Source: Candidatus Omnitrophota bacterium (lineage in GTDB: Bacteria; Omnitrophota; Gorgyraeia; Zapsychrales; Zapsychraceae). From it: 56,000 bases of DNA. The position numbers and the translations under genes are program-made. The notes under the pieces were generated by a model, which saw only the letters and a list, made by a program, of their open reading frames with translations, was not told where the DNA came from and ran no database searches. Shown piece after piece: positions 1 through 44,458 of the stretch (positions are counted from its first letter, which is position 1; each line of letters opens with the position of its first letter). The stretch covers positions 1 through 56,000 of the forward strand of contig DOGZ01000010.1 of the NCBI GenBank assembly GCA_003528115.1, in the 5' to 3' direction.

Positions 1-433
1 CGGAAAATTCAATAATATCTTCAAGGCGCTCATCAATTTCTTTCTTCTTCATTCCCAGGATGGTCCCGTTAAGATAGACATTTTCCCGGCCAGTAAGTTC
101 CGGATGGAATCCGGCCGTGACCTCAATGAGGGCCGAAAGACGGCCATAAATACGCATATCTCCCTTGTTCGGGATATGGATACCGGAAAGTATTTTCAAG
201 ACTGTGCTTTTACCTGCGCCATTGGGACCAATGATTCCGACGACTTCTCCCTTTTTAATATGAAAATTAACATCTTTGACTGCCCAAAACTCCTTGTCTT
301 CCAAAGTTCCAATGCTATTATCGTTCTTCAAAAATAACCCCTTGAAAAAGTTCGGTATCGTGTCTCTCAAGGAATTAAACTTCTCTCCCTTTTTAAACTT
401 TTTCCAGACATTATTAAATTCAATAGTGTTCAT
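1..433 (-). CDS. ABC transporter ATP-binding protein, polysaccharide/O-antigen export type (Wzt/KpsT/TagH-like), C-terminally truncated by window edge
   Basis: Reverse-strand translation from ATG at 433 reads MNTIEFNNVWKKF...GIIGPNGAGKSTVLKILSG (Walker A) and stays open to the window start; sits immediately downstream of the ABC-2 permease. Confidence 0.8.
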   Translation of the reverse strand, partial: MNTIEFNNVWKKFKKGEKFNSLRDTIPNFFKGLFLKNDNSIGTLEDKEFWAVKDVNFHIKKGEVVGIIGPNGAGKSTVLKILSGIHIPNKGDMRIYGRLSALIEVTAGFHPELTGRENVYLNGTILGMKKKEIDERLEDIIEFS

Positions 434-468
434 TTGTTTTCCTCATTTTTAAAGGTGCCTTGGGCTCT

Positions 469-1266
469 TTAAACATTCTCTGCAAACAGCGGTTCCTTTT
501 TGTGAAACACATGGATTCCGGTGAAGAACATCAGCACGGAGCAGATCATGGCGTAACTTAACCATAAAGGATCCGGCATGCGCTGTCTCACCACAACATC
601 GTTGATGGCTTCCAGGATGCTTCCGACGGGATTGAGAAGCAGGATGGTCTGCCAGTCCCCGAACATATCCGCCTGAAAAAGGACTGGGGTAAAAAATATT
701 CCGAACATAAGAATGACTTCCACAATGTAGCGGACATCTCGGTAAAAGAGATTCGCGGCCGATAATAAAAAGCCTAACCCTGCCGTAAACAAGAAAAGGC
801 TTAACAAAATCACGGGAAGCCAGAAGAGATAGATGCTGACGCCGACTTTCGCGAATATAAGAAGAATTGTTAAGACAACCATAGCGATCGCGAAATCAAA
901 CAAACAAGCCACAATTGAGGCCAGCGGCAGGACTTCGCGGGGAAAATAAATCTTGGTTATCAGGCTGCTGTTGCCAACAAGACTGTTGACTGAAAACTTT
1001 AAAGCGCTGACAAAAAACGTCCATGGCAAAACCTTGACAGAAATCGAAACCACCCCCTGCAGATCCATCGGTTTACCGGACACAACGGACATGGCCTTTT
1101 TAATCAAGATACCAGCGGCAACGGCCACGATAGGCATGAACACAGCCCACAAAACCCCCATGGCCGCCTGCTTGTAGCGCACGCGGATATCACGTTGGAC
1201 AAGCATAATCAGCAGGTCACGGTATTTAAAAATATCCCTAAACATATTTCTACTCTTCATGTCCAC
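469..1266 (-). CDS. ABC-2 type polysaccharide export permease (Wzm/KpsM-like)
   Basis: 265-aa ORF, six hydrophobic segments, typical ABC-2 N-terminal YRDLL motif; followed by the ATPase gene. Confidence 0.85.
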   Translation of the reverse strand: MDMKSRNMFRDIFKYRDLLIMLVQRDIRVRYKQAAMGVLWAVFMPIVAVAAGILIKKAMSVVSGKPMDLQGVVSISVKVLPWTFFVSALKFSVNSLVGNSSLITKIYFPREVLPLASIVACLFDFAIAMVVLTILLIFAKVGVSIYLFWLPVILLSLFLFTAGLGFLLSAANLFYRDVRYIVEVILMFGIFFTPVLFQADMFGDWQTILLLNPVGSILEAINDVVVRQRMPDPLWLSYAMICSVLMFFTGIHVFHKKEPLFAENV

Positions 1267-2431
1267 TCCTGTTGTATTTGTTCATCTTTCTTTTTAATTG
1301 TTTTATAAATGATAAAATTCTTCCTTTAAAATTTCCAGGGTAAATGATGATATCCGTCATCAAAGTTATCTCTTCGGACCATCGTTTTTTATAACTCGCG
1401 GTGTACCCTAAATCCAGGCGACGTATTCCATCCTTGTAAAGTTGTTCAATCAACAGATTGTGAAGGATCAACCCCGGAGAATAGGGATGAAACGTCTTGT
1501 CATAGGCTGTATCAAAAGCGAAATAGGTTTCGTGATATTTTAAACCAACCATGTAGGCCGCTGGCCTCTCCCCGGCATAAAGTATTGAAATATCCAGACA
1601 TCCCTTTGCCGACAACTCCCTGACGGCTTCTGTGTAAAATTGCTCTCCTTCCACAGAGGAAATGATGTTCACGTGATCGTTTGCCTGCCAGGAGTTTGTG
1701 GCAACAGTCTTTAACTTGTCGATAATGTTCGCGTCCCCCGGCGCGGAACGCCTAAGCGTCACTTCTCCTTCCTGTGACAATCGTTTTAACTTTCTGCGCG
1801 CGTCCATCCTGAAATTCTTGCTTTGACTATTGAAATAATCTTCCCAGCTTCCGCTCAGAGGAATAAAGGCATGGGGTTTAGGCGTTTCATGAAATGCCAC
1901 GCAGTTCTTTTTTAATAATTCGATAAATTGTGAAAAGTTTTCTCCCAGGGTATCCATCTGCGCTAAAAGAAAAGCCTCCCGCGATTCTTTTATAAGATCG
2001 CACAGCAAACTTAGACACTCCTGACGTTTATCACACAATATAAAATCCATACGTGTCCAGTGATTGGATAAAAAACCAACCGCTTGAATAGAAATTCCCG
2101 TCAATTTTGTCCCATATTTCATCAAAGGCACAAAACCGATGAAACGTTCCCCGTCTTTAAAAGATACGATGAACAGTTCCTTATCATGACCGTACCCCTT
2201 CCACCAGGCGCTCAGCCATTCGTGGGAAAGGAAAGGGTTGTTGATGCCACTTTTGGCCAGCACCGCATTCCATTCGTCACGCATTGCAATAAAGGCATTG
2301 GTGTCGCGAATAATTTCAGTGGTTACGTTGACGTTCTTTTCCGATTGGACTAATTCACTGGGCGGTGGAAGAAAATCACCTACCCGTTTTAATCTTCCAA
2401 CTGGCATATCTTCATTTTTTTTGTTCTTCAT
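1250..2431 (-). CDS. FemAB/CelD-like GNAT acyltransferase (Acetyltransf_6 family; PEP-CTERM-locus FemAB-related type)
   Basis: 393-aa ORF with BioF2/FemAB-like architecture; 17-nt overlap with the downstream permease. Confidence 0.6.
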   Translation of the reverse strand: MKNKKNEDMPVGRLKRVGDFLPPPSELVQSEKNVNVTTEIIRDTNAFIAMRDEWNAVLAKSGINNPFLSHEWLSAWWKGYGHDKELFIVSFKDGERFIGFVPLMKYGTKLTGISIQAVGFLSNHWTRMDFILCDKRQECLSLLCDLIKESREAFLLAQMDTLGENFSQFIELLKKNCVAFHETPKPHAFIPLSGSWEDYFNSQSKNFRMDARRKLKRLSQEGEVTLRRSAPGDANIIDKLKTVATNSWQANDHVNIISSVEGEQFYTEAVRELSAKGCLDISILYAGERPAAYMVGLKYHETYFAFDTAYDKTFHPYSPGLILHNLLIEQLYKDGIRRLDLGYTASYKKRWSEEITLMTDIIIYPGNFKGRILSFIKQLKRKMNKYNRSGHEE

Positions 2432-2515
2432 AATGTCTTATTGCCGTCGAAATTAAAATTCCCGCCCCCGCGTGGGGAACTTCCATCGCTCATCACCCCC
2501 ACCCAACCTCCCCCA

Positions 2516-3751
2516 TCAATGGGGAGGAATATCTATTTTATTCACTACCTTCACCCATATTTTGTGAAGCGGCAAGAACCCAAACTTTATCTCATGGAGA
2601 AACGGCAGGGGATCATCCAGGCTCCAGTTGGCCCAGACACGTGGTCCGGTCAAGACGCTGTTCAGCCATTCCTTCCAGGTGATCTCCCCTGTTCTTAAAT
2701 AGCCGTAAAAGGAGGCCCGGTCTTCCTTAAAGGCGATCCATTTGACGCCTTCCTGGAATTTGGTCTGGGGTTCAACCTTCTCGCCGATGATGTCCAAATA
2801 AGCCGTTAAAGCAAAATTCTGCCCGCAGGCCTCTGGCAGACTGTTCTGCGCCCAAAGCCGGGGATTAAGCTCGATCATTTTCAATTGGTTGTCGCGTTTG
2901 TCTTTTTTAAACTCAATCGACCCCACGCCGCGATAACCGATCCTTTGCATAAACTCCAATCCGAGGCGCGCCACCTCCGGTTCCCAGACACTCATCACCA
3001 TTGACCCGATTCCAAACCGGCAGGGATACTGCCGGATCTTCTGCAAGGTAAACGTCAGGAGAGGTTTGTTCTCGCTATTCATGTACGTGCAAATTTTGTA
3101 ATGACACGTGTCATCCCCCTGGATCACTTCCTGAATCAGCGGGTCGATGTGATCGTTGTCATGGATTTTCTGATAGATCTCAACCAATTCTCTGGAGTTA
3201 TTGATATTAAACGCCTTCTTATCGCCAAAACGTCGACGCCACGCATCGGTTCTGACACCTTTCAAAAGAACGGGATAATTCAATGTCCCGGCAAGCTGTT
3301 GGATGTCCTGAAGATTTTTCGGGAGGTACGTCTTAGGGACAGGAGTTCCGTTCTCTCGGGCCAAATCATACTGCCCGTTTTTATCCAGGATTCGGTCCAT
3401 CAACGATTTGGGGGACATGGCGAACTTAAAGTGTTCGATGAGGAGATCGCGGTTAGTATTGACATAATCGACAAAGACATCACTCGTCGGCATCAGTACC
3501 GCCGGAGCACCTGTCGTTTTCACTAAGTCCAGCAGAAAATCCATAAAGGCCTTCGGGTCTTTTTGCGGGTCCGGACAGACAAAACACTTAGCGTACCGCG
3601 TGCGCAGTCCCGGTTTATCCTTATCCGGATCAAGGGCATAAACTTTAATACCATTACGGCCTAAACTGCGCGCGGCGGCAAGCCCGGTTACGGACATTCC
3701 TAGAATAAAAGTGGGGATGAGATATTTTGATTTAATTAGCTCTTGGCTCAT
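2516..3751 (-). CDS. ATP-grasp domain protein (carboligase-like)
   Basis: 411-aa ORF; C-terminal GVGSIEFKKD...IELNPRLW resembles the ATP-grasp catalytic loop. Confidence 0.55.
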   Translation of the reverse strand: MSQELIKSKYLIPTFILGMSVTGLAAARSLGRNGIKVYALDPDKDKPGLRTRYAKCFVCPDPQKDPKAFMDFLLDLVKTTGAPAVLMPTSDVFVDYVNTNRDLLIEHFKFAMSPKSLMDRILDKNGQYDLARENGTPVPKTYLPKNLQDIQQLAGTLNYPVLLKGVRTDAWRRRFGDKKAFNINNSRELVEIYQKIHDNDHIDPLIQEVIQGDDTCHYKICTYMNSENKPLLTFTLQKIRQYPCRFGIGSMVMSVWEPEVARLGLEFMQRIGYRGVGSIEFKKDKRDNQLKMIELNPRLWAQNSLPEACGQNFALTAYLDIIGEKVEPQTKFQEGVKWIAFKEDRASFYGYLRTGEITWKEWLNSVLTGPRVWANWSLDDPLPFLHEIKFGFLPLHKIWVKVVNKIDIPPH

Positions 3752-3809
3752 AGCTCTTAGCTCATAAATTCATATGCAAACGATTGCGCAAAGATAAATA
3801 ATAGAAACA

Positions 3810-4187
3810 TTAATCAATCGTTTCCTTAATAGAAGAAGCCAGTCCTGAAATCATTTTGCCTATCTCAATACCGCGGGTCTTCAGGGCATTAAACTGGACG
3901 TCATTTATCCACTGCTTTTTATAAAATATCGTCAGAAAAGTAATGGTCTCATATAATGAACCTCTGGCGACGTAAAGTGACCTGACAAATTCTTTCTTTG
4001 AATAACGTCCCTTTCCTTCTGAAATATTAGCCGAAATAGAAGCGGCTGATGATTCTATTTGTTCGACCAAACGATAATGTCTGCGGTCAGTATTAATGAC
4101 TTCTGTAAGATCAATAATATCTGTACAAAAATCCACTGATTTCTTCCACACTTCTAAATCTTCAAAGTTAAACCCGTTCCCCTTCAT
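3810..4187 (-). CDS. Four-helix-bundle protein (23S rRNA intervening-sequence protein / DGR Avd-like family)
   Basis: 125-aa ORF with EDLEVWKKS...ISANISEG pattern typical of the PF05635/TIGR02436 family; flanked by inverted repeats (see findings). Confidence 0.8.
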   Translation of the reverse strand: MKGNGFNFEDLEVWKKSVDFCTDIIDLTEVINTDRRHYRLVEQIESSAASISANISEGKGRYSKKEFVRSLYVARGSLYETITFLTIFYKKQWINDVQFNALKTRGIEIGKMISGLASSIKETID

Positions 4188-4268
4188 GCCAAACTTCTTC
4201 CGTTTAATCCTTCTGACTTGGTCATTAATGCTTTCATTTCCGCTCGGTCAAGAGCCACGAGCTAAGAC

Positions 4269-5285
4269 CTAAGAGCCATCAAACGCCCTTATTAAATTCA
4301 CTGCGAACAGGCTAATGGGCACAGGCGGACCGATGCGTTTTAAAGCAAAAACGTCCCCGGGACGGCTGTTGGCTCCATAGTCACAGGTGCTAACGCTTTC
4401 AAAACCGATTTCCCTGCAGTACGCTCTCAACTCCTCATTAAAATCCTGCGGTCGTCCATTGGGATAGGCAAAATGTTTCACAGGGACACCCAATTTCTCT
4501 TCAATGGTTTTCTTGGAATTAGAGATCTCTTCCTTAGCTAGCCTAACAGGAACACTGGTTAGAATCGGGTGTGAGCACGTATGCGCGCCGAAACTCACAT
4601 GATTATTGAGCATCTCACGTACCTGTTGCCAGTTCAGCATATCAGGTTTGTTAAAAGATACGGGTTTTCCTAACTTCCGCTCAATTTCGGCCAAATAGGC
4701 ATCCCGCGATTCAATAGGCAAATCTTTCAACTGACTCAATGTCATCATGTACGCGCGACGCTTTTCAGCCAGAGTCATTAAGGAAAGTTTACCGGTTATG
4801 ACTTCACCTGTCAGTTCCATAAATTGTTCGCTGGTCGCATAAAAAGTACTGCCCAACCTGTCAACCCAGATTTTATCATTCGTTCCGATATAGTCGGTGG
4901 TAAGAAAGATTGTCACAGGTATCTGAGACTCTTTGATGGCTGGAAAAAGGTAATCGTAATTATTTTTGTATCCATCATCAATCGTGATCGCGACTGTCGG
5001 ACGTTTGAACAATTCTCCGCGCTTAAGGCCCTCAACAAGTCTGTCCAGGGAAGAGATATCAAAATATTTCTTGAGGAACCGCACTTCCTTGCGGAAATCA
5101 TCAATGCGGTGCGTGACGCAGGGATCGAGTTCCATGGCCTTATCCAGACGATCCACAAAACTGTGATAATTAATGATCACCGCCGTGAAGTCTTTTCGTC
5201 TCTGGAGAAGGAAGCGGATATACAAGTCCAGTAACCCGGAGTAAAATAAAACGCGGCAAATCAAAATTTTGATAAAGTATCTCAT
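4269..5285 (-). CDS. Polysaccharide deacetylase (NodB-homology domain; PEP-CTERM-locus type)
   Basis: 338-aa ORF with ITIDDGYKNNYD...PVTIFL NodB motifs. Confidence 0.8.
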   Translation of the reverse strand: MRYFIKILICRVLFYSGLLDLYIRFLLQRRKDFTAVIINYHSFVDRLDKAMELDPCVTHRIDDFRKEVRFLKKYFDISSLDRLVEGLKRGELFKRPTVAITIDDGYKNNYDYLFPAIKESQIPVTIFLTTDYIGTNDKIWVDRLGSTFYATSEQFMELTGEVITGKLSLMTLAEKRRAYMMTLSQLKDLPIESRDAYLAEIERKLGKPVSFNKPDMLNWQQVREMLNNHVSFGAHTCSHPILTSVPVRLAKEEISNSKKTIEEKLGVPVKHFAYPNGRPQDFNEELRAYCREIGFESVSTCDYGANSRPGDVFALKRIGPPVPISLFAVNLIRAFDGS

Positions 5286-5301
5286 TTTGCCTTATGCGGA
5301 T

Positions 5302-6087
5302 TTAAAGATATCTATAAATATATTCCGGCAGGTGATATTCGATATTGGTCAAAACGTGGCCGAGGATCTTGGAATGTGTTTGAAACAGGAGGTCTTCCGC
5401 GCGTCGGATAATACCACGCTGTGTACGGCCCGCCTGCACCACCATCAGAACACCATCGGCTATGGGCCCGACAATCCCGGCATCGGTCACCGGAATAATG
5501 GGCGGGGTGTCTATGAGGATATAGTCGAAGTCACTCTTCATCTCAGCCAAAAATTGTTTCATTTTATCCGAGGCCAACAGCTCCGCCGGGTTCTCCGGAA
5601 TACCGCCAGAACCCACAAAGGCGAGATTATCATATTCCAGATGAAAGAGGACGTCTTCAGCTTTTGCCGCGCCGGTGAGTATTTCCATGAGACCGACTTT
5701 GTGATCAACACCCAAATATTTAACCATTCGCCCTCTTCTCATGTCCGCGTCCACCAAAAGGACCTTGGGTTTTTGAACAGACTGCGCCAGCGCGACCGCC
5801 AAATTGATCACCGTCACCGTTTTACCTTCTGAATGGATGGAGCTGGTGATGACAATGGTTTGCGGCGGTTTCCCCTTGTTCATCGATAGGATATTTGTTC
5901 TTAAAATTTTATACTGCTCGGATATTAATGCCTTGGGGTCAAAATACGTCACGATACTGGGATCAACGTTGGATTCGCCGATTTTCTTGACGATCAAATC
6001 CTCCCGTTCTTTTAAGCGGCTGATTTTTTCTATCCGCTCCAAACGTTCTTCGGCAGCCTTTTTTAACGCGTTTGTAATTTTTCCCAT
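5302..6087 (-). CDS. Tyrosine autokinase-type ATPase of capsule/EPS chain-length control (CpsD/EpsB/Wzc C-terminal domain-like)
   Basis: 261-aa ORF; ITSSIHSEGKTVTVINLA (Walker A-like), VLLVDADMRRG (Walker A' / DxD); ParA/MinD fold. Confidence 0.8.
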   Translation of the reverse strand: MGKITNALKKAAEERLERIEKISRLKEREDLIVKKIGESNVDPSIVTYFDPKALISEQYKILRTNILSMNKGKPPQTIVITSSIHSEGKTVTVINLAVALAQSVQKPKVLLVDADMRRGRMVKYLGVDHKVGLMEILTGAAKAEDVLFHLEYDNLAFVGSGGIPENPAELLASDKMKQFLAEMKSDFDYILIDTPPIIPVTDAGIVGPIADGVLMVVQAGRTQRGIIRRAEDLLFQTHSKILGHVLTNIEYHLPEYIYRYL

Positions 6088-6326
6088 ATTATTTCCTTAG
6101 TGCTGTGTTACCTAAATCTAAAAAATTTAATTTTCTGATTTTTCCCTCTTAACTCTTTAGCTCGCGACTCAGAACCCCGGGCACTTAACAAAGATCATAC
6201 GTGGCGATATCAGGCCTTCAGGAGGGTAACCATATGACCATCCATCTATTTCCCACTTATGATCCATTAGGGGGGCTAATGTGTAAGTGCCCGGAGCCAT
6301 GAGTGCCAAGCTATCAGCCACGAGCT

Positions 6327-7193
6327 TTAGACTAAATGATTCATCCTCACTTCTTCTTCCTTGATTGCCTTGGCGTTTCCCCCAATTTGCGTCATCGGTG
6401 AATCCAGGATCGCTTCATTAATCATCTCTTCATCGATCAATTTGACTTCGGAAATATATCCGGATAACAGAGCGCTGTCACAGATTTGATTAATTAACCT
6501 CGGCACCCCATTAGAAAACGCGTATATCCTCTCCAGGGCGCCTTCCGTGAAAAACTGCCGATCCCCGCCCCCGGCTACTTTTAAACGGTGCAGGATATAC
6601 GCCCACGCGTCTACTTTATCTAAAGGCGTCAACTGAAAATAAACCGCGATCCTCTGACGAAGCTGTTCCAGCCTGGAAAGAGCGAGCTTCTTTTTCAACT
6701 CCGGTTGTCCCAAAAAAATAATCTGTATCAATTTTTCATTCTCCGTCTCTAAATTAGACAGCATCCGCACTTCTTCCAGCAAAGAAGGCGTTAAATTCTG
6801 CGCCTCATCAATGATCAAAACGACGTTATTGTGACCGCGCAACTGGTCTATGAGATACGCGTTAAGTTGAGAGTGCAGTTTTGATTTGGATCCGGGCTGA
6901 TAATCAATTTCCAGGTCTTCAAGAATGGTCATGAGCAAATCTTTTCCGCTCATGTGGGTATTGGTAATAAGCGCGGTATGCGTCTTGCGGTCAAGTTGAT
7001 TGATCAGCGCCCGGCAAACAGTTGTTTTCCCCGATCCGATATCGCCGGTGATCACCACAAAACCTTTCCGCTCATTAATGGCGTAGATCATCGTGCTTAA
7101 CGCCTCGGCGTGCTTCACGCTCGAAAAAAAGAATTTGGAGTTCGGCGTTAAATTAAAAGGCGGTTCTGTGAAACCGTAAAATTTATAGTACAT
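6327..7193 (-). CDS. ExeA/GspA-like AAA ATPase (PEP-CTERM-locus secretion ATPase type)
   Basis: 288-aa ORF; YGFTEPPFNLTPNSKFFFSS...ITGDIGSGKTT matches the ExeA N-terminal AAA_22 pattern. Confidence 0.8.
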   Translation of the reverse strand: MYYKFYGFTEPPFNLTPNSKFFFSSVKHAEALSTMIYAINERKGFVVITGDIGSGKTTVCRALINQLDRKTHTALITNTHMSGKDLLMTILEDLEIDYQPGSKSKLHSQLNAYLIDQLRGHNNVVLIIDEAQNLTPSLLEEVRMLSNLETENEKLIQIIFLGQPELKKKLALSRLEQLRQRIAVYFQLTPLDKVDAWAYILHRLKVAGGGDRQFFTEGALERIYAFSNGVPRLINQICDSALLSGYISEVKLIDEEMINEAILDSPMTQIGGNAKAIKEEEVRMNHLV

Positions 7194-7199
7194 TTGTCC

Positions 7200-8510
7200 T
7201 CACTTCAGAAAACTTCCCACCGCATTGGTCAAGATAATAATGACGACACCGGCGGCAAAGGTGAGAGAATACATCCATACCTGCCTTTCTTTCTGGCGAC
7301 GGACACTCTCTTCGGTCTGTATTTTGGATATCGCCCCCAAAAGCGGCACCCCAAAAAACTGATTGGCTTCTTCCACATCAATAAAAGACTTGTCTAAAAA
7401 CTCTGTGGCAATGACAAACACAAAACCCAATAAGGATCCCACCATCAAGCCCCCGATAGCCACAAGGACTTTATTGGGCCTGACCGGTCTGAGAGGAACT
7501 CTTGGAGGATCCAGAATGGTATACTTCGTTCCCTCTTTGGAACTTTGCAGTCTCTGGGTGATCTTAGCGGTCTCCAGCCTTTGGAGGAGCATGTTATAAA
7601 TAGAATTATTAACACCGACGTCCCGGGCCATGACCTTATCAAGAGTGTCGACAAGTAAAACTTTGTAATAATCTTTTTCCGGATTTTCTAAAGAAATTTT
7701 TCTGGCCCCGGTTCCTTCCACATCATCCAAGGCCGCTCGAATATCATTGATAATGGGATTAACCGTCTGTTCATCCAAAGTCACGTCTTCCGTGTATTCT
7801 AAATTTTCCTTTCGCAATTCATCCTCTTTGGCGATGATCACTTCACGAAGCTCCTTGACTCTGGGATGCTGTTCCGTTGAGTCCAGTAATAGCGTCTTCA
7901 AATTATCCTTAAGCTGGGCAATCTCGGCGGACTTGATTTTTCCCCGATAGAGTTTTAACTGTTCTTCGATAAAGACAATGGCATCCGATGTTTCCTTATT
8001 CTGAATGTCGATGTTGCGTTCGATAAAAATCTCTGTAATATTCTTAACGACATCCCGCGTCCGTTCCGGCTCATCTCCGATGTAAGACAACTCAAGGATA
8101 TTTTGGCCCCTCATTCTAATCATCATATCCTTTCTGATCCCTAAAACAGCGAATTCCAACTCTTGAGGCGTCTTGATATCCTTATCCATATTTAATCTTT
8201 TTGTGAGTTGAACCAGACTATTCCAGCCCAGCATGGACTCCCGAATAGCCGTCATTCTCTGGCCTACGGTGGATGATACCGCCAACTGGTCAAATAGAGG
8301 GTTATCGCTTTTTCCCTCTTCGACCATCAGTATCGTCGAAGAAATGTATTTCTTGGGCAAAACCAGGCCGGTACAGACCCCAAAAATCAAACCGATAAAG
8401 GCTGGAATTATAAATAATTCCTTCCTTCTAAAAAATATTTTTAAATAATTCATCGGCAGCATTTCGCCGTGTTGAATCTCCCCCATATCCATTCCTTTCT
8501 CCGGTTTCAA
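7200..8510 (-). CDS. Polysaccharide chain-length determinant protein (Wzz/GumC-like PCP)
   Basis: 436-aa ORF with N-terminal TM, long coiled-coil periplasmic region and C-terminal TM (LVAIGGLMVGSLLGFVFVIATEFL). Confidence 0.75.
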   Translation of the reverse strand: MKPEKGMDMGEIQHGEMLPMNYLKIFFRRKELFIIPAFIGLIFGVCTGLVLPKKYISSTILMVEEGKSDNPLFDQLAVSSTVGQRMTAIRESMLGWNSLVQLTKRLNMDKDIKTPQELEFAVLGIRKDMMIRMRGQNILELSYIGDEPERTRDVVKNITEIFIERNIDIQNKETSDAIVFIEEQLKLYRGKIKSAEIAQLKDNLKTLLLDSTEQHPRVKELREVIIAKEDELRKENLEYTEDVTLDEQTVNPIINDIRAALDDVEGTGARKISLENPEKDYYKVLLVDTLDKVMARDVGVNNSIYNMLLQRLETAKITQRLQSSKEGTKYTILDPPRVPLRPVRPNKVLVAIGGLMVGSLLGFVFVIATEFLDKSFIDVEEANQFFGVPLLGAISKIQTEESVRRQKERQVWMYSLTFAAGVVIIILTNAVGSFLK

Positions 8511-8539
8511 TCATTATCTCATTTAACTTCTTACTTTTC

Positions 8540-9358
8540 TTAGAACCCCGTCGTGACGGTCCGCCCCAGACCGGACGCTGTCCCTACAGGCGCCGCCACC
8601 GGCTGTATGACGCGCAATGCCTTAGCCATGAGCGTTGGCGGAACGTACAGGGTGTCCCCCGGTGACATAACTAAATTTTCTCTCAAATCCCCTTTATAAA
8701 GAAGCTTGTCCACATTGACGTTCTTTTGTTGGGGATGGCCATCACTGCTGGGGGTAATCAACAAGGTCTTGCCTCCCTTGGCACTCAAAAGAGGTAATCC
8801 CGCCTGAACCAAGGCCTCCCGGATGGTGATCGTGTCTCCCCGCATATAAATCTTCCCTGGTCTTCCCACCTCCCCTATAACATAAACAACCTTGCTATTG
8901 TATCCGGCAATCTTAACGGTCACTTCAGGAGAGATGATATAATTGCTCAATTTCTCAACCAATAATTTTGCTATTTCATCCTTAGTCAAACCGATCACCT
9001 GAACGTCACCAATAAATTCATATTGGATGTTGCCTTCCCCATTAATAACATATTGCCCGCTGACTTCAGGATGACGTAATACGCTTACCTGAATAACATC
9101 CTCAATCCCTAAAGTGTATTTACTACTGCTTTCGCTGTTTAAATCCGCCTGCGGTAGAAGCGGAACACCTTCATTCTCTAATATTTCCTCGACATTCAGC
9201 GGGCTGAGTTCTTCTTCTTTTTCTTCAGGCACCAAATTGGCGAAATTTTGGGCTTCCGCCTTATCGATGTCATCCCAAGCCCCAAGACTTCCGATCAGTA
9301 ATAATACTAATAAACCTCTTAGTACCACATGATTCTTATTCATCTTAAAACTCCCCAT
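8540..9358 (-). CDS. Polysaccharide export outer-membrane/periplasmic protein (Wza/KpsD-like, Poly_export + SLBB)
   Basis: 272-aa ORF, signal peptide, YTLGIEDVIQVSV...GEVGRPGKIYM motifs. Confidence 0.8.
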   Translation of the reverse strand: MGSFKMNKNHVVLRGLLVLLLIGSLGAWDDIDKAEAQNFANLVPEEKEEELSPLNVEEILENEGVPLLPQADLNSESSSKYTLGIEDVIQVSVLRHPEVSGQYVINGEGNIQYEFIGDVQVIGLTKDEIAKLLVEKLSNYIISPEVTVKIAGYNSKVVYVIGEVGRPGKIYMRGDTITIREALVQAGLPLLSAKGGKTLLITPSSDGHPQQKNVNVDKLLYKGDLRENLVMSPGDTLYVPPTLMAKALRVIQPVAAPVGTASGLGRTVTTGF

Positions 9359-9385
9359 TCAGTTGACAATAAATATTTTGCTTTT

Positions 9386-9559
9386 TTAAACTTCAACAAC
9401 AGTTTCGCGAAATTGTTTAATATGATGCAGGTCACGTTCATCATAAATACGCCAGCCCCGCCAATCCCGCTTGGCCCTTCTAACCTTACCTACCTTTTCC
9501 CATCGCACAATCGTTTTGGGGCTTATCCCAACGAGTTCCGCGACTTCTGTAATCGTCAT
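9386..9559 (-). CDS. Small MerR/excisionase-type HTH DNA-binding protein (DNA-binding domain only)
   Basis: MTITEVAELVGISPKTIVRWEKVGKV...WRIYDERDL matches the MerR-family HTH_17 signature; ORF as called extends to 9586 but the first Met fitting the family is at 9559. Confidence 0.5.
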   Translation of the reverse strand: MTITEVAELVGISPKTIVRWEKVGKVRRAKRDWRGWRIYDERDLHHIKQFRETVVEV

Positions 9560-10065
9560 TCGGTTGTTCACGTCCTCTCCTCCCATTTAGTCAAATTGAA
9601 CGGTCATCAATATCTTGTTAAAAAACAATAGAACAAATTCATCAATTTATCGATACCCTCTCCTAAAGCAAATACTATGCCAGTTACCGTAAAAGATTTT
9701 TATTAAAATAACCTCTTCAATTTGTTTAAATTCAAATGGTTATAGAAACCTCATAATTACCTAAATATTAACAGACACTACCTGTCTTAGGCGACGTTTA
9801 AAAGAATGAACATGTCTGTCCAGGACATACCAGGACAATAATATAACCACATTAATAACATCATGTTACATACTTGTTCATGTTTGTCATCACATCAGCG
9901 TTTCAATAATACAATATTCCATTATTACAAAGTAACCGCATTAAACGGATCAGAAATCTTATTTTAGGAAATAATTTTGACAATTTTCAGGTCAATATCC
10001 AAAATCATCCCGTCTGCTTATAAAATATTTGTTGACTCTGAATCGTTATGGTATACTTCTTGCGT

Positions 10066-11448
10066 ATGAAAATTAAAATTACCGCCTCTCAGATCCAAAA
10101 GCAAGTTCTGGCACCCTCCATGCAGCAGTCCATTGAGATCCTTCTGCTTCCTTTGATTGAGTTAAACACAGCCATTGAACTGGAACTGCAAGAAAATCCC
10201 CTGCTTGAAATCGTTGAGGACAGATCCATGACTTCCCAAAACCCCATCGAAGACCTTGTTAATCAAAATCTTAAACGCCTGAAAGATTCCGCTATAGATA
10301 ACAGTCAACCCGCTTATTTTTCCCAGGAGGAAGAAGACTCTGAAGAAAAGGAAATTACGCGCAGCGCGCCCCTTGAAGAATATCTTTTGCAACAACTGCG
10401 TATTGAAATCACAGACCTTCTGGACCTAAAGATTGGAGAATTCATCATCGGGAATCTGGATGAGGATGGTTTTTTCAGGATGAGTTGCGAGGAAACGGCC
10501 TTAATGCTCGGGCTGAAAAGCGCGGAAATTGTTGAACGGATCCTTCATACCATTCAAAACTTTGAGCCATTAGGCGTGGCGGCCAGAGATCTCAAAGAAT
10601 GTCTCACTGTTCAGGCCCATTTCAAATTTAACGACACCACCCGGGATCTCATTTGCAAAGTCATCAACGACCATCTTGAAGAATTGGGCCGCAAGAAATA
10701 CACCGAGATCGCGCGAAAATTAAAATTACCGTTAACTACCGTCAAGAAAATCACGCAAGAGATTGCCAGTCTGGAGCCAAGACCGGCCCGAAAATACAGG
10801 CCAACCGACACGAATATCTATGTCCGGGCCGACGTCACGATAACAAAGAATTCAGAGGGGGAGTACGAGGTCCGCATCAATAATGATTCTATTCCCCATT
10901 TACGCATCAATGCCTTTTATCAAAACATGCTGAAACAGCCCAATCGAACTCCGGAAGAAATAGAATTTATTCGGGAAAAAGTTAAGAACGGCATTCTTTT
11001 TATCAAGAGCATTGAACAACGGCATCAAACTATCCGAGACATCACCCACTATCTTGTGGCATATCAAAAAGATTTCCTGGAGAATGGCCCCCTCCAACTC
11101 AAACCCATGATCCTGAAAGACGTGGCGGATTCGATCGGAAGAAATGAGTCCACGGTCTGCCGGGCGATCAATAATAAATATGTGGAAACGCCTCAAGGAT
11201 TGTTTCCCATGAAATTCTTTTTTTCCCAAGCCTTGTCAGAGAACACGCAAGACGGTAAGTCCATCTCTAGCCGCAGCATTAAAGAGGAAATCAAGACGCT
11301 GATTGAAGAAGAAAATAAAGTCAATCCCTTATCCGACCAGGACATCCAAAACTATTTTAAAGAAAAAGGAATGCCCGTCGCCCGCCGGACCATCAGCAAG
11401 TACCGCCAAGCCATGCGGATCCTGCCTTCGCACTTGAGAAAAACATAA
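10066..11448 (+). CDS. rpoN: RNA polymerase sigma-54 factor
   Basis: N-terminal Gln/Leu-rich region I, core-binding region, C-terminal RpoN box (ARRTISKYRQAM); second in-frame ATG (10066) fits the canonical N-terminus better than 10048. Confidence 0.9.
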   Translation: MKIKITASQIQKQVLAPSMQQSIEILLLPLIELNTAIELELQENPLLEIVEDRSMTSQNPIEDLVNQNLKRLKDSAIDNSQPAYFSQEEEDSEEKEITRSAPLEEYLLQQLRIEITDLLDLKIGEFIIGNLDEDGFFRMSCEETALMLGLKSAEIVERILHTIQNFEPLGVAARDLKECLTVQAHFKFNDTTRDLICKVINDHLEELGRKKYTEIARKLKLPLTTVKKITQEIASLEPRPARKYRPTDTNIYVRADVTITKNSEGEYEVRINNDSIPHLRINAFYQNMLKQPNRTPEEIEFIREKVKNGILFIKSIEQRHQTIRDITHYLVAYQKDFLENGPLQLKPMILKDVADSIGRNESTVCRAINNKYVETPQGLFPMKFFFSQALSENTQDGKSISSRSIKEEIKTLIEEENKVNPLSDQDIQNYFKEKGMPVARRTISKYRQAMRILPSHLRKT

Positions 11449-11531
11449 CTGATTTTAGAAAAAGCCGACTATTTGCACCCTATAACGGTTCGATTGTCAG
11501 GATCGTTTGTAAAAGAATCGTAATTATAAAT

Positions 11532-11556
11532 GCCGAGACAACCAGTTGGACTCGGG
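11532..11556. terminator. Candidate bidirectional hairpin between convergent rpoN and cupin genes
   Basis: GCCGAGACAACCAGTTGGACTCGGGC inverted repeat; weak flanking U-tracts. Confidence 0.3.
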
Positions 11557-11651
11557 CAGTGTTTGTGGAACCGATACGGCGGCGTTTACAATAATGAAGA
11601 GAGAAACAATAGCAACTATCTATGAATTTCTTGTCATGTCAATCTTCCTAC

Positions 11652-12008
11652 TCACTCGGCCCTTTTATAATCATCCTCCAACCGAATAATGTCGTCTTCC
11701 GAAAGATGGTCTCCGCACGCGACTTCTATGAACACAAGATTCTCATGGCCGGTGTTGGCAATTCGATGGATGGCGCCTAGCGGAACATCGATGACCGCCC
11801 CGGGCCCAACACCAACATCCTTTCCATCCAGCGTCACTAAACCTTTGCCTTTAATAATATTCCACTTCTCCGACCGGTGCAGGTGCTTTTGAAGACTAAG
11901 ACGCTTGCCAGGATTAACCTCCACCCTCTTGACCCAAAACCCCGACTCATGAAGGAATTTAATATAATGTCCCCACGGACGTTCTGAAGCATTGATATTG
12001 ATGTCCAT
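11652..12008 (-). CDS. Cupin-domain protein (mannose-6-phosphate isomerase type II C-terminal cupin-like)
   Basis: 118-aa ORF; GxHRIxNxGxExLVFIEV cupin motifs. Confidence 0.7.
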   Translation of the reverse strand: MDININASERPWGHYIKFLHESGFWVKRVEVNPGKRLSLQKHLHRSEKWNIIKGKGLVTLDGKDVGVGPGAVIDVPLGAIHRIANTGHENLVFIEVACGDHLSEDDIIRLEDDYKRAE

Positions 12009-26640: not shown

Positions 26641-27921
26641 TTATCTCTGCAATATAACCGCCGCTCCCTGGCCTCCACCAACGCACAAAGAGATCAAACC
26701 CGTATTCAGATTGTCGCGCTTCATATGTTTGAGCATCGTTAAGATCAATCGTGTCCCTGACGCGCCCACCGGATGCCCCAGAGCTATGGCCCCGCCGTTC
26801 ACATTAAGAATAGACCGGTCAATCGTTCCTGTGTACCCATCGTACCCAAATGTTTTAGCAAATGAGGGAGACTCCAGGGCAGCGAGACAGCTTAAAACCT
26901 GCACGGCAAAAGCCTCATTGATTTCCACTGCCTGGATATCTTTTAACTTCATCTCAGCTTTTTTCAAGACCTTGGGGATCGCGTGCGCCGGCCCAATGCC
27001 CATGCGATGGGGTTCAACCCCGGCAAAAGCATAAGCGTGAACATATCCCAACACGGGAAGATTCAATGCCTTGACCCGGCTTTCACTCATCACAAGTAAA
27101 GCTGCCGCTCCGTCTGTGATCTGACTGGAATTGCCCGCCGTGATCGTGCCCGATCGTTTATCAAAAACCGGCTTTAATTTGGCCAGGGCCTCCATGGTCT
27201 GGTTTTCCCGAGGGCCGTTATCCAGCTCAACCGCGGTCTTGTATTTCGGCGCCGGAATGACAGGGACAATTTCCTCTTTAAGCGCTTCGCGGGCCTTCAC
27301 CGCCTTTTGGTGACTAGCCAAGGCAAACGCGTCCTGCTGTTCCCGGGTAATACCAAATTCTTTCGCGAGAACCTCGGCGGTCTGCCCCATATTCAGTCCA
27401 CAGACAGGATCCGTTAACCCGAGTTGAAGACCAATCTGCGGCGGGAGATATTTGAAACGAAACGTCCCCCACATCTGAAGTTTAGCCATGACCGTCTTGG
27501 CCTTGGCCAACCGGCCCAGGAAATCCTGCATTGATCTGGATAAATAAAATGGGATGCTGGTCATTGACTCGGTACCGCCGGCCAAATAACAATTTCCCTC
27601 GCCGACTTGAATTTTCATAACGGCCTGAATGACCGCCTCTATCCCTGAGGCACAATTGCGCTGGACCGTATAGGCTGGAATAGTCGTCGGAATACCGCTC
27701 ATCAAGGCGATCACGCGCGCAATGTTGGTTGAATCCGCGGGCTGACCGACGTTGCCAAAAATCACTTCCGCGATCTCCCGGGGGTCGATGGCGGTTCGTT
27801 CCAAAAGTTCCCGGGTCACAATGGCTCCGAGTTCCCGCGCCCCTAAATCATTAAAATCCGTCCCCATCCGGCAGAACGGGGTCCTGATGCCATCAATAAT
27901 CGCTATTCGTTCCATAATCAT
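26641..27921 (-). CDS. fadA: Acetyl-CoA C-acyltransferase (3-ketoacyl-CoA thiolase)
   Basis: 426 aa; thiolase C-terminal NVNGGAIALGHPVGASG. Confidence 0.9.
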   Translation of the reverse strand: MIMERIAIIDGIRTPFCRMGTDFNDLGARELGAIVTRELLERTAIDPREIAEVIFGNVGQPADSTNIARVIALMSGIPTTIPAYTVQRNCASGIEAVIQAVMKIQVGEGNCYLAGGTESMTSIPFYLSRSMQDFLGRLAKAKTVMAKLQMWGTFRFKYLPPQIGLQLGLTDPVCGLNMGQTAEVLAKEFGITREQQDAFALASHQKAVKAREALKEEIVPVIPAPKYKTAVELDNGPRENQTMEALAKLKPVFDKRSGTITAGNSSQITDGAAALLVMSESRVKALNLPVLGYVHAYAFAGVEPHRMGIGPAHAIPKVLKKAEMKLKDIQAVEINEAFAVQVLSCLAALESPSFAKTFGYDGYTGTIDRSILNVNGGAIALGHPVGASGTRLILTMLKHMKRDNLNTGLISLCVGGGQGAAVILQR

Positions 27922-27939: not shown

Positions 27940-27995
27940 TATCCTTTAACCTTTAACCTTTAACTTTTATCCTTTATCCTTTATCCTTTTTCCTT
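27940..27995. repeat. Tandem heptamer microsatellite (CCTTTAA)x3 then (CCTTTAT)x3
   Basis: Read directly from the sequence between the ligase stop and fadA start. Confidence 0.8.
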
Positions 27996-44277: not shown

Positions 44278-44458
44278 GAAGACGTTCCTAAATTTGCCAA
44301 TTTTTGTTCGAACAGGTTCATCCGAAAACTCTGATCCACCACCTGGAGTGATTTTAACAGCCGGTCTATAGAAGTCAAATATCTTCCGGAGAATAAAGGA
44401 AAATAAACAAGGAATAGATATCCATTCCCCATACGCAGGTTAATGATTCGAAGAGATT

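What the first reader, a model, noticed from the sequence alone, without database searches (positions are those of the whole stretch)
3738..4280. Four-helix-bundle (Avd-like) gene as a discrete cassette bounded by inverted GCTCTTAG-type termini, with a 14-nt duplication of the neighbouring start codon
Seen directly in the sequence. At the left end, the ATP-grasp gene begins ATGAGCCAAGAGCT (minus strand, 3738-3751). It is immediately preceded by a near-identical copy ATGAGCTAAGAGCT (3752-3765) that carries an in-frame TAA. At the right end, the deacetylase stop codon runs into GGCTCTTAG|GTCTTAGCTCGTGGCTCTTGACC (4246-4280, minus sense). The two ends are inverted copies of the same CTCTTRGCTC unit, with a shared 9-mer TCTTAGCTC. 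The four-helix-bundle gene with its own leader lies between them. This looks like insertion of a small cassette with terminal inverted repeats and a target-site-like duplication of the host start region. Four-helix-bundle proteins of this family are known as rRNA intervening-sequence ORFs and as DGR Avd proteins. No reverse transcriptase, template repeat or variable repeat is present here, so the gene appears to move as a minimal selfish or cargo cassette.
Basis: seen in the sequence. Interest (0 to 1): 0.55.

Follow-up and report, generated by a model that had tools for sequence, protein, structure and literature searches.

The report
Heptamer-flanked four-helix-bundle gene cassette
A small gene of unknown function, bracketed by mirror-image runs of a 7-base repeat, sits between two sugar-coat genes that directly abut in related bacteria; the same unit lies inside operons of many bacterial phyla, which links rRNA intervening sequences, Avd-like proteins and the unexplained excess of 7-base repeats.

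Summary
Window 3738-3765 and 4250-4277 are the only two RGCTCWT heptamer arrays in 56 kb. They are inverted and bracket a PF05635/TIGR02436 four-helix-bundle (4HB) gene. The "cassette" reading holds and generalises. In 77 relatives of this gene from about ten phyla, 65 have significant inverted flanks. Period-7 arrays are 20 times denser beside the gene than elsewhere in the same loci, and cassette-only homology occurs in unrelated contexts. Orthologous EPS operons lack the gene, and their deacetylase and ATP-grasp genes overlap stop-to-start. The "duplication of the host start codon" reading is wrong. The 14-mer is the cassette's own 3' array, and it donates the ATP-grasp start codon and the residues MSQEL. 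The identical 14-mer starts an unrelated Ham1 gene in another genome. The 5' array supplies the deacetylase stop codon. The architecture matches the 23S rRNA intervening sequence of Coxiella and Leptospira (stem plus S23p ORF, cut by RNase III), but here it lies in an mRNA operon. The likely mechanism is a promoterless passenger looped out by an array stem. The mode of mobility is unknown, and no wobble-pair signature supports RNA-level selection. I found no paper linking heptamer repeats to these genes. Verdict: new variant of a known kind, interest about 0.7.

The parts
4250..4277 (-). 5' terminal array: four heptamers GGCTCTT AGGTCTT AGCTCGT GGCTCTT. It contains the deacetylase stop codon TAG (4269-4271) and a second TAG in another frame.
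   Evidence: ORF end
4188..4249 (-). 62-nt leader between the 5' array and the 4HB start codon. No promoter-like site on this strand beyond chance.
3810..4187 (-). Four-helix-bundle protein gene, 125 aa (23S rRNA intervening-sequence protein family).
   Evidence: TIGR02436 E=1.2e-29, PF05635 E=5.7e-30; model pLDDT 91.6, TM about 0.85 to 2GSC/2RLD
3766..3809 (-). 44-nt spacer between the 4HB stop codon and the 3' array.
3738..3765 (-). 3' terminal array: ATGAGCT AAGAGCT ATGAGCC AAGAGCT. It holds a mini-ORF ATG AGC TAA (3757-3765), the ATP-grasp start codon (3749-3751) and most of codons 2-5, which run on to 3737.
   Evidence: N-terminal extension shown; same 14-mer starts a Ham1 gene in L018
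4269..5285 (-). Upstream host gene: polysaccharide deacetylase. Its last two codons and stop codon lie in the 5' array.
2516..3751 (-). Downstream host gene: ATP-grasp ligase. Its first five codons (MSQEL) are array-encoded.

Best explanation
The segment from about 3738 to 4277 is one copy of a widespread, promoterless "intervening-sequence-type" cassette. It consists of a PF05635 four-helix-bundle ORF bracketed by inverted arrays of a heptanucleotide repeat (unit AGCT plus 3 nt; here RGCTCWT, four units per side).

It lies exactly at a junction where, in orthologous XrtA-type EPS operons, the deacetylase stop codon and the ATP-grasp start codon overlap. The insertion is tolerated because the arrays carry the needed translation signals. 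The 5' array supplies the TAG that ends the deacetylase. The 3' array supplies the ATG, and five extra codons, that start the ATP-grasp gene.

The cassette is co-transcribed with the operon. In that transcript the two arrays can pair into a stem of about 20-28 bp that loops out the 4HB ORF. This is the same anatomy as the 23S rRNA intervening sequences that encode the same protein family, where RNase III cuts within the stem.

Shown: the anatomy, family membership, the empty site, the array-donated stop and start codons, and the generality of the architecture. Inferred: co-transcription, RNase III processing of the stem, and an Avd-like nucleic-acid-binding role for the pentameric protein. Unknown: how the cassette moves.
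For: - Arrays are unique in the window and significantly inverted.
- Both the MFE and the centroid RNA folds pair the two arms. Duplex energy of the flanks has z=-2.9.
- Empty sites: L098/L099 and L100 have deacetylase and ATP-grasp overlapping by 4 nt and 1 nt, with no 4HB gene, in otherwise collinear operons.
- MSQEL is absent from 12 orthologs.
- Array-encoded N-termini recur on unrelated genes: L018 MSQEL-Ham1, L028 MSNEL-epimerase, L096 MSYEL-glycosyltransferase, L071, L049, L054.
- Survey of 77 related 4HB loci from many phyla: 65 have inverted flanks above all shuffles (median score 16 against 7.4; direct-orientation control 7.5).
- Period-7 arrays occur at 3.17/kb within 150 nt of the ORF and at 0.16/kb elsewhere in the same loci. 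Periods 5, 6, 8, 9 and 10 are essentially absent beside the ORF.
- The upstream neighbour is co-directional in 67/71 loci and the downstream neighbour in 64/74. The upstream stop codon lies inside the 5' arm in 25/59.
- Homology is limited to array+ORF+array in unrelated contexts: L037/L045, L067/L085, L084/L086.
- Cultured cyanobacteria show the same pattern on annotated plasmids.
- No own promoter or terminator signal.
- Coxiella IVS: S23p ORF, 28-bp terminal stem, tandem heptamers upstream of the ORF, RNase III cleavage mapped in the stem (PMC4990558).
- The fold matches 2GSC/2RLD first, then the RNA-binding Avd pentamer of the DGR ribonucleoprotein.
Against: - No RNA data exist for this organism.
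- The whole-cassette fold is only weakly better than shuffles (z=-1.66).
- Across 67 loci and 2058 arm positions, mismatches show no wobble bias (75 G:U against 79 A:C, p=0.81). So there is no signature of selection on sense-strand RNA pairing, and the inverted symmetry could serve at DNA level.
- The reverse association is weak. Of 100 informative (TAGCTCA)n arrays in metagenomes, 92 are solo, 7 are ORF-less hairpins and only 1 adjoins a 4HB gene. The arrays are therefore a broader repeat class, not exclusive cassette ends.
- Donation of start codons is not universal. It is seen in 11/55 loci, and Bacteroidota units contain no ATG.
- The window's cassette is invariant in the 8 contigs that span all 621 nt; a ninth differs by one substitution and a tenth, which does not span it fully, by six. 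Recent mobility is therefore not demonstrated here.
- The nearest orthologous operons are only about 60% identical, so the exact ancestral junction is inferred.
Confidence: 0.62

Rival explanations
1. DNA-level mobile element. The inverted heptamer arrays act as terminal repeats, or as a single-strand DNA hairpin, recognised by a recombinase acting in trans or by the 4HB protein itself. This would resemble RAYT genes, which sit between inverted REP sequences while many solo REPs populate the genome. Any RNA stem would be incidental. This rival concerns how the cassette spreads and is not exclusive of the main explanation.
For: - Cassette-limited homology in unrelated contexts.
- No G:U over A:C bias in the arms.
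- Many solo arrays and ORF-less hairpins of the same unit.
- Solo arrays near a cassette share its unit in 60% of cases, against 17% for other loci.
- Different 4HB paralogs within one locus carry different units (L025, L092, L093).
- Array copy number differs between near-orthologous loci (L023 against L025), as it does among Coxiella strains.
Against: - No target-site duplication is present.
- The 125-aa helical bundle has no recognisable nuclease or recombinase motif, and it has no PADLOC or PHROG match.
- No transposase lies within 10 kb either side.
- No presence/absence polymorphism was seen among the contigs carrying this cassette.
- The solo heptamer array in this window (27943-27995) has a different unit.
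Confidence: 0.3
2. Domesticated or functional operon component. The 4HB protein and its arrays serve the host, for example in transcript stabilisation, translational coupling or insulation between cistrons, or phase-variable expression through 7-nt slippage. On this view they persist in polysaccharide operons because they are useful, not selfish.
For: - There is a strong bias to co-directional, tightly packed positions inside operons, many of them polysaccharide loci.
- The inward-reading strand of the arms is enriched in stop codons (2.10 frames closed against 1.72 for its reverse complement, p=0.005; all three frames closed in 29/67 5' arms).
- Authors of work on cyanobacterial STRR and Beggiatoaceae TAACTGA repeats proposed roles in transcript stability or translational control (PMC2670836; PMC4679880).
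- The ORF is well conserved.
Against: - Orthologous EPS operons function without the cassette.
- Host operons are functionally unrelated: priA-fmt, rlmN-yacP, rml genes, cas6-cas4, and a site directly downstream of a tRNA gene.
- Homology is limited to the cassette across unrelated contexts.
- The Coxiella study concluded that S23p is probably not made and is decaying there.
Confidence: 0.15
3. Remnant of a diversity-generating retroelement (DGR): an orphan Avd gene left behind after loss of the reverse transcriptase and the template/variable repeats.
For: The fold resembles Avd (4DWL, 8UB7; TM about 0.75). Pfam PF05635 also matches DGR Avd proteins (PMC10053308).
Against: - No reverse-transcriptase domain within 10 kb either side.
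- No direct repeats of 35 nt or more in 12 kb.
- The protein is much closer to the non-DGR members 2GSC/2RLD (25-30% identity) than to Avd (11-15% identity).
- On pANA02 a genuine avd-RT pair and a heptamer-flanked stand-alone 4HB gene coexist as separate entities.
Confidence: 0.03
4. Chance similarity, or a purely local slippage duplication of the ATP-grasp start region, with no cassette.
For: The arms are short and degenerate (about 80-90% complementary over 20-25 nt).
Against: - 0 of 1462 random placements reach the observed score.
- The same unit, polarity and geometry recur around dozens of homologous genes.
- The identical 14-mer occurs next to another cassette in another genome.
Confidence: 0.01

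Closest known systems
23S rRNA intervening sequences that encode an S23p / PF05635 ORF (Leptospira, Ralph and McClelland 1993, as cited in PMC4990558; Coxiella burnetii, PMC4990558; also reported in 16S/23S inserts of CPR bacteria, bioRxiv 10.1101/2024.02.27.582315)
   Same: - Same protein family.
- An element of about 0.45-0.55 kb.
- Terminal inverted repeats forming a stem of about 28 bp around the ORF.
- Tandem heptamers next to the ORF, with copy number varying between strains.
- Sporadic distribution suggesting horizontal spread.
- Transcription depends on the host gene.
   Different: - The host is a protein-coding operon, not an rRNA helix.
- The ends overlap and supply the stop and start codons of the neighbouring genes.
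- RNase III excision is shown for the rRNA elements but only inferred here.
- The heptamer unit differs (RGCTCWT here, GACAGAT in Coxiella).
Heptanucleotide simple-sequence repeats: cyanobacterial STRR, Xanthomonas GGGAATC, Nostoc GGGGAYT, Beggiatoaceae TAACTGA (PMC2670836, PMC4692102, PMC4679880)
   Same: - Tandem 7-nt units in intergenic spacers of operons.
- Often able to form hairpins.
- The stop-rich strand faces the downstream start codon.
- Lengths vary between strains.
- Function is unexplained.
- Heptamer arrays flank 4HB genes in Anabaena, Calothrix and Nostoc plasmids.
   Different: - Those papers treat the repeats as stand-alone SSRs and do not mention PF05635 genes.
- Here two arrays in inverted orientation bracket a gene.
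- The window's arrays are short (4 units) and degenerate.
DGR accessory protein Avd
   Same: Four-helix-bundle fold (TM about 0.75). The solved relatives 2GSC and 2RLD were each deposited with five chains, and the Xanthomonas protein is described as a homopentamer. Avd is part of an RNA-protein complex.
   Different: - No RT and no TR/VR repeats nearby.
- Only 11-15% sequence identity.
- A genuine avd on pANA02 lacks the long inverted arrays.
REP sequences and RAYT genes (REPtrons); MITEs (from my own knowledge, not tested)
   Same: A small gene sits between inverted copies of a short repeat that is far more numerous as solo or paired copies in intergenic regions.
   Different: - The 4HB protein has no HUH/Y1 transposase motifs.
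- The repeats are tandem heptamer arrays, not single palindromes.
- No target-site duplication is present.
Integron gene cassettes, and engineered non-polar cassettes such as aphA-3 (from my own knowledge)
   Same: A promoterless ORF inserted co-directionally and expressed from host transcription. Stop codons lie at the entry side, and a start codon is offered to the downstream gene.
   Different: No attC site and no integrase. This element is natural, and its translation signals are by-products or properties of the repeat unit.

Membership tests
PF05635 / TIGR02436 four-helix-bundle protein (23S rRNA IVS protein) | Profile score above the curated cut-off over the full length | tested here: met
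   TIGR02436 102.8 bits (cut-off 24), profile positions 1-109 of 109. PF05635 104.1 bits (cut-off 33.8).
PF05635 / TIGR02436 four-helix-bundle protein (23S rRNA IVS protein) | Four-helix up-down bundle like 2GSC / 2RLD | tested here: met
   Model pLDDT 91.6 with four long helices. Foldseek TM 0.84-0.87 to 2GSC and 0.78 to 2RLD. Profile E=2e-15 and 6e-14.
23S rRNA intervening sequence (IVS) element | ORF of the S23p family enclosed by terminal inverted repeats that can form a long stem | tested here: met
   Arms of 20-28 nt. Both the MFE and the centroid folds pair them.
23S rRNA intervening sequence (IVS) element | Inserted in a helix of an rRNA gene | tested here: not met
   There is no rRNA in the window. 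The element lies between two protein-coding genes.
23S rRNA intervening sequence (IVS) element | Excised from the precursor RNA by RNase III | not testable with these tools
   Known only by analogy with Coxiella.
DGR (Avd component) | Adjacent reverse transcriptase | tested here: not met
   No RVT domain among the genes called within 10 kb either side.
DGR (Avd component) | Template and variable repeat pair | tested here: not met
   No direct repeat of 35 nt or more in window 1-12000.
Heptanucleotide SSR / STRR | Tandem 7-nt units in an intergenic spacer | tested here: met
   TRF finds period 7, 4.3 copies, at 3737-3766. A regex finds both arrays. Both are degenerate and only four units long.
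Heptanucleotide SSR / STRR | Cyanobacterial host (for STRR in the strict sense) | tested here: not met
   The host is a Candidatus Omnitrophica MAG from groundwater.
TIR transposon / MITE | Target-site duplication flanking the inverted repeats | tested here: not met
   No direct repeat lies outside the arms. The 14-nt repeat is tandem and lies inside the 3' array.
TIR transposon / MITE | Multiple near-identical copies in the genome | tested here: inconclusive
   Only one copy in the 56-kb window. The rest of the genome is not available.
Integron cassette | attC site and a nearby integron integrase | tested here: not met
   No integrase among neighbours within 10 kb either side. Repeats are present at both ends, not as a single 3' attC.

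The most novel reading that the evidence does not exclude
PF05635 four-helix-bundle genes and heptanucleotide arrays form one propagating system. The pentameric Avd-like protein would be the trans-acting factor that recognises, spreads or expands its cognate 7-nt arrays, at RNA or single-strand DNA level. Gene-containing cassettes would be the autonomous copies, and the far more numerous solo arrays and hairpins (STRR, GGGAATC, TAACTGA and similar) the non-autonomous ones. That would explain at once the rRNA intervening sequences, the reported but puzzling "CRISPR association" of this family, and the long-noted excess of heptamer repeats in bacterial genomes.
Probability: 0.2. Interest if true: 0.9.

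Novelty: new variant of a known kind. Interest (0 to 1): 0.72.

Why it matters
PF05635 is a very large family of unknown function: 20,771 clusters at 50% identity match at E<=1e-3. It has been noticed repeatedly in rRNA intervening sequences, in DGRs and inside cas operons, without a unifying explanation.

Heptanucleotide repeats are reported as the most over-represented long simple repeats in many bacteria (PMC4679880, PMC4692102), and they are equally unexplained.

The window shows a clean case of an IVS-type element in a protein-coding operon. It has an empty-site comparison, and the repeat arrays now provide a neighbour's stop codon and another neighbour's start codon. The survey shows this is the rule for the subfamily.

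If the link holds genome-wide, three consequences follow:
- It gives a concrete, testable handle on both puzzles: RNase III assays, and 4HB binding to array RNA or DNA.
- It warns that the "association" of this family with CRISPR or polysaccharide loci may be hitch-hiking.
- It flags array-encoded N-terminal extensions (MSQEL, MSYEL and similar) as an annotation artefact or feature in many genomes.

Tried and rejected
1. Target-site duplication: rejected. The 14-mer pair is part of the 3' array, and the identical 14-mer occurs beside another cassette.
2. "ATG in all three frames" as a general design of the 3' array: rejected as general. Mean frames with a start codon are 1.18 against 0.96 in shuffles, and Bacteroidota units lack ATG. 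Stop-codon enrichment of the 5' arm is modest but significant.
3. Wobble-pair test for RNA-level selection: no bias.
4. Looking for orthologous loci with the ATP-grasp protein in genome contigs found nothing. This was solved through protein homologs and their contigs.
5. tblastn against plasmids at E<=1e-8 found nothing. At E<=1 it gave 13 hits, which were then used.
6. Rfam found no family in 3500-4500 at E<=1, and only one tRNA in the whole window.
7. PADLOC and PHROGs gave no match.
8. The promoter/terminator scan found nothing beyond chance, and no minus-strand promoter inside the cassette.
9. Population variation in array copy number among contigs carrying this cassette: none found.
10. 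DGR remnant: rejected.
11. Literature searches for PF05635, TIGR02436, S23 ribosomal protein or four helix bundle protein together with heptamer terms found no paper making the link. The library does not hold most subscription-journal papers, so prior description cannot be excluded.
Full report
**1. The observation**

Read on the minus (coding) strand, window 4277-4250 is GGCTCTT AGGTCTT AGCTCGT GGCTCTT. Window 3765-3738 is ATGAGCT AAGAGCT ATGAGCC AAGAGCT. These are four heptamers on each side, and one set is the reverse complement of the other.
- The repeat finder reports arms 3744-3763 / 4259-4278 (20 nt, 90% complementary), and longer registers of 23-25 nt at 80-83%.
- TRF calls period 7 and period 14 at 3737-3766.
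- The 9-mer TCTTAGCTC occurs only at these two sites.
- The 14-mer with up to 2 mismatches gives 5 hits against 0.37 expected, 4 of them in the arrays.
- A degenerate heptamer regex finds only these two arrays in the 56 kb.
- With the same geometry placed at 1462 random positions in the window, the inverted-repeat score averages 8.1 (maximum 13), against 16 observed.

**2. The gene and its setting**

The ORF 3810-4187(-) is a full-length member of TIGR02436 / PF05635, the four-helix-bundle or "23S rRNA intervening sequence" protein family.
- Its AlphaFold model (pLDDT 91.6) is a four-helix bundle. It matches 2GSC and 2RLD best, then the DGR protein Avd.
- The surrounding minus-strand genes form an XrtA/PEP-CTERM-type exopolysaccharide operon: export protein, chain-length determinant, ATPase, tyrosine kinase, deacetylase, ATP-grasp, GNAT, ABC permease.
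- The source is a Candidatus Omnitrophica MAG from Rifle groundwater.
- No reverse transcriptase lies within 10 kb either side, and there are no long direct repeats.
- There is no rRNA in the window.
- No Rfam family and no promoter or terminator signal beyond chance were found in the cassette.

**3. Empty site and donated codons**

The closest orthologous operons (ATP-grasp about 59% identical; L098/L099 and L100) are collinear but have no 4HB gene. Their deacetylase and ATP-grasp genes overlap stop-to-start by 4 nt and 1 nt.

In the window, the deacetylase ends at a TAG inside the 5' array. The ATP-grasp ORF begins at the first start codon after an in-frame stop, which is an ATG inside the 3' array. 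Aligned with 12 orthologs, the window protein has five extra N-terminal residues, MSQEL, encoded by ATGAGCC AAGAGCT A.

A hypothetical precise excision (after GATGGC, before AATTAAATC) would restore an overlapping junction. It would read ...GAT GGC AAT TAA for the deacetylase and ATG GCA ATT AAA TCA AAA TAT for the ATP-grasp gene, resembling L100. This is inference only, given the divergence.

The clearest proof is L018, from another Omnitrophica genome. There the identical 14-mer ATGAGCCAAGAGCT follows a 66%-identical 4HB gene and starts an unrelated Ham1-family gene. That protein begins MSQEL-LIATRNKGK, and its Pfam domain starts at residue 5. Comparable array-encoded N-termini occur on an epimerase (MSNEL), a glycosyltransferase (MSYEL), a dehydratase, a radical-SAM protein and a Wzt ATPase.

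**4. The architecture is general**

Three homologs looked up individually sit in other operons: rmlD|4HB|rmlB, rlmN|4HB|yacP, and priA|4HB|fmt. All three are flanked by the same kind of arrays in inverted orientation.

A scan of one genome per species returned 80 loci from Omnitrophota, Planctomycetota, Nitrospirota, Desulfobacterota, Bacteroidota, Chloroflexota, Ignavibacteria, Dadabacteria and others. Of 77 loci with complete flanks:
- 65 have an upstream/downstream inverted repeat above every shuffle (median score 16, against 7.4 for shuffles and 7.5 for the direct-orientation control).
- Strict tandem arrays of period 7 occur at 3.17/kb within 150 nt of the ORF and at 0.16/kb in the rest of the same loci. 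Periods 5, 6, 8, 9 and 10 are essentially absent next to the ORF.
- Units share an AGCT core plus 3 nt. They vary by lineage and by paralog: AGCTCAT/AGCTGAT, AGCTCAA/AGCTGAA, AGCTCGA/AGCTGGA, AGCTGGT, GGTGAAA and others. The upstream unit matches the reverse complement of the downstream unit.
- The upstream neighbour is co-directional in 67/71 loci and the downstream neighbour in 64/74.
- The upstream gene's stop codon lies inside the 5' arm in 25/59 and just before it in many more.

**5. A discrete unit**

For L037 against L045, and for L084 against L086, nucleotide similarity is confined to array+ORF+array (or to the ORF plus arrays). Even tblastx finds nothing in 2.4 kb on either side. L067 and L085 are two such cassettes 6 kb apart on one contig. 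Near-orthologous loci (L023/L025) differ in the number and spelling of units while their flanks are about 90% identical. This parallels the heptamer copy-number variation among Coxiella strains.

**6. Cultured, annotated examples**

On cyanobacterial plasmids the gene is again flanked by inverted heptamers:
- Anabaena sp. 90 pANA02: CAGGTGA/CAGGGAA upstream and CTGTCAC downstream.
- Calothrix NIES-22: GGGTGTA upstream and CTACACC downstream.
- Nostoc ATCC 53789: GGGAAAA upstream and CCCTTTT downstream.

On the complete 56-kb pANA02, period-7 arrays occur at only three places: around this gene (one array is 260 nt long), in the next spacer, and as a short run beside a genuine avd-RT pair. There the gene lies between cas6 and cas4 of a type I-D operon. 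This offers a mundane explanation for the reported association of 23S_rRNA_IVP with cas loci (PMC3936711; PMC10910872).

**7. The reverse test**

Exact (TAGCTCA)3 arrays occur on at least 120 metagenome contigs. Of 100 informative arrays, 92 are solo, 7 are ORF-less hairpins, and 1 adjoins a 4HB gene. The arrays therefore belong to a broader and more numerous class of intergenic heptamer repeats, and the 4HB gene sits between inverted pairs of them. Solo arrays near a cassette share its unit in 60% of cases, against 17% for arrays compared across loci.

**8. RNA or DNA?**
- Both the MFE and the centroid folds of the cassette RNA pair the two arms.
- Duplex energies of the flanks are better than shuffles: window z=-2.9, median z=-3.4 across loci.
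- Mismatches in the arms show no G:U excess over A:C (75 against 79). The commonest mismatches come from C/G alternation at one unit position. There is thus no positive evidence for selection on sense-RNA pairing, and a DNA-level role remains open.
- The inward-reading strand is richer in stop codons than its complement (frames closed 2.10 against 1.72, p=0.005; all three frames closed in 29/67 5' arms). This fits tolerated insertion into translated regions, but the loci are not phylogenetically independent.

**9. What is known**
- The Coxiella 23S IVS is an S23p ORF with a 28-bp terminal stem and 2-3 tandem heptamers upstream of the ORF. RNase III cuts in the stem (PMC4990558).
- That paper also cites the Leptospira IVS and the old proposal that the ORF might serve mobility.
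- Heptanucleotide repeats are reported as the most abundant long SSRs in many bacteria. They have been described as stand-alone elements in Calothrix/Nostoc (STRR), Xanthomonas and Beggiatoaceae, with unknown function.
- None of the papers retrievable with the family's names or with heptamer terms links the two.

**10. Interpretation**

The best-supported account is an IVS-type, promoterless passenger cassette. It lies at a stop/start junction, it is made harmless by array-borne stop and start codons, and it is probably looped out, and perhaps cut by RNase III, in the operon transcript. How it spreads, and what the Avd-like pentamer does, are not known. A REP/RAYT-like relationship between the protein and the arrays is the most interesting reading that the evidence does not exclude.

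**11. Caveats**
- The survey covers only one subfamily (48% identity or more to the query).
- Some loci are orthologous to one another.
- Most genomes are MAGs. One apparent cross-domain case (L086) could be contamination.
- No experiment bears on this organism.

Noticed in passing
window 27943-27995 (minus-strand sense): A solo heptamer array (AAAGGAT/AAAGGTT, 8 units, with TAA in all three frames). It fills the spacer between an AMP-binding acyl-CoA synthetase gene (27997-29481) and a thiolase gene (26641-27921) in a beta-oxidation operon. It starts at the upstream stop codon and ends about 20 nt before the next ATG. Its unit differs from that of the 4HB cassette, and it has no inverted partner.
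   Followed up: partly
L101 / L226 (Anabaena sp. 90 plasmid pANA02, record 43498-44983): A 4HB gene sits between cas6 and cas4 of a type I-D operon. It has a 260-nt heptamer array upstream and a 30-nt inverted array downstream. The published "association" of 23S_rRNA_IVP with cas loci may be cassette hitch-hiking. The same plasmid carries a separate genuine avd-RT DGR.
   Followed up: partly
L105-L224 (metagenome contigs): Perfect (TAGCTCA)n arrays are common as stand-alone intergenic repeats on at least 120 contigs. Some exceed 200 nt (L144, L155, L176). Many abut a start codon (L115, L149). Why the same heptamer recurs across unrelated contigs is unexplained.
   Followed up: partly
L098 5274-6513; L001 15123-16573: The orthologous EPS operon in L098 has a two-gene insert (a DUF6036 protein plus an unknown protein) between the ATP-grasp and GNAT genes. 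The window's source contig carries an AbiEi/AbiEii pair after the ABC transporter. These operons seem to collect small selfish modules.
   Followed up: no
L050 1615-2455 (Nonlabens MAG): About eight tandem copies of a 105-113-bp unit, each containing heptamer arrays, lie upstream of the 4HB gene. Orthologous Lutibacter loci have one copy.
   Followed up: no
L086 (Candidatus Syntrophoarchaeum MAG) 2498-2857 and 4332-4634: Two 4HB cassettes lie on one contig of an archaeal MAG. One is 80% identical in protein to that of a Nitrospinae MAG (L084), with no flank similarity. This is either cross-domain transfer or bin contamination.
   Followed up: no
L032 2326-2433: A 4HB cassette and an extra ORF-less array hairpin lie immediately downstream of a tRNA-Arg gene. 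The cassette is therefore not restricted to protein-coding junctions.
   Followed up: partly
L025 709-1062; L092 547-936; L093 1264-1614: Second, distant 4HB paralogs (28-33% identity) in the same loci are flanked by repeats of different unit and apparently different period (8-9 nt; for example GGAACGTTA and CCAGCTTA). This hints that each protein lineage has its own cognate repeat.
   Followed up: no
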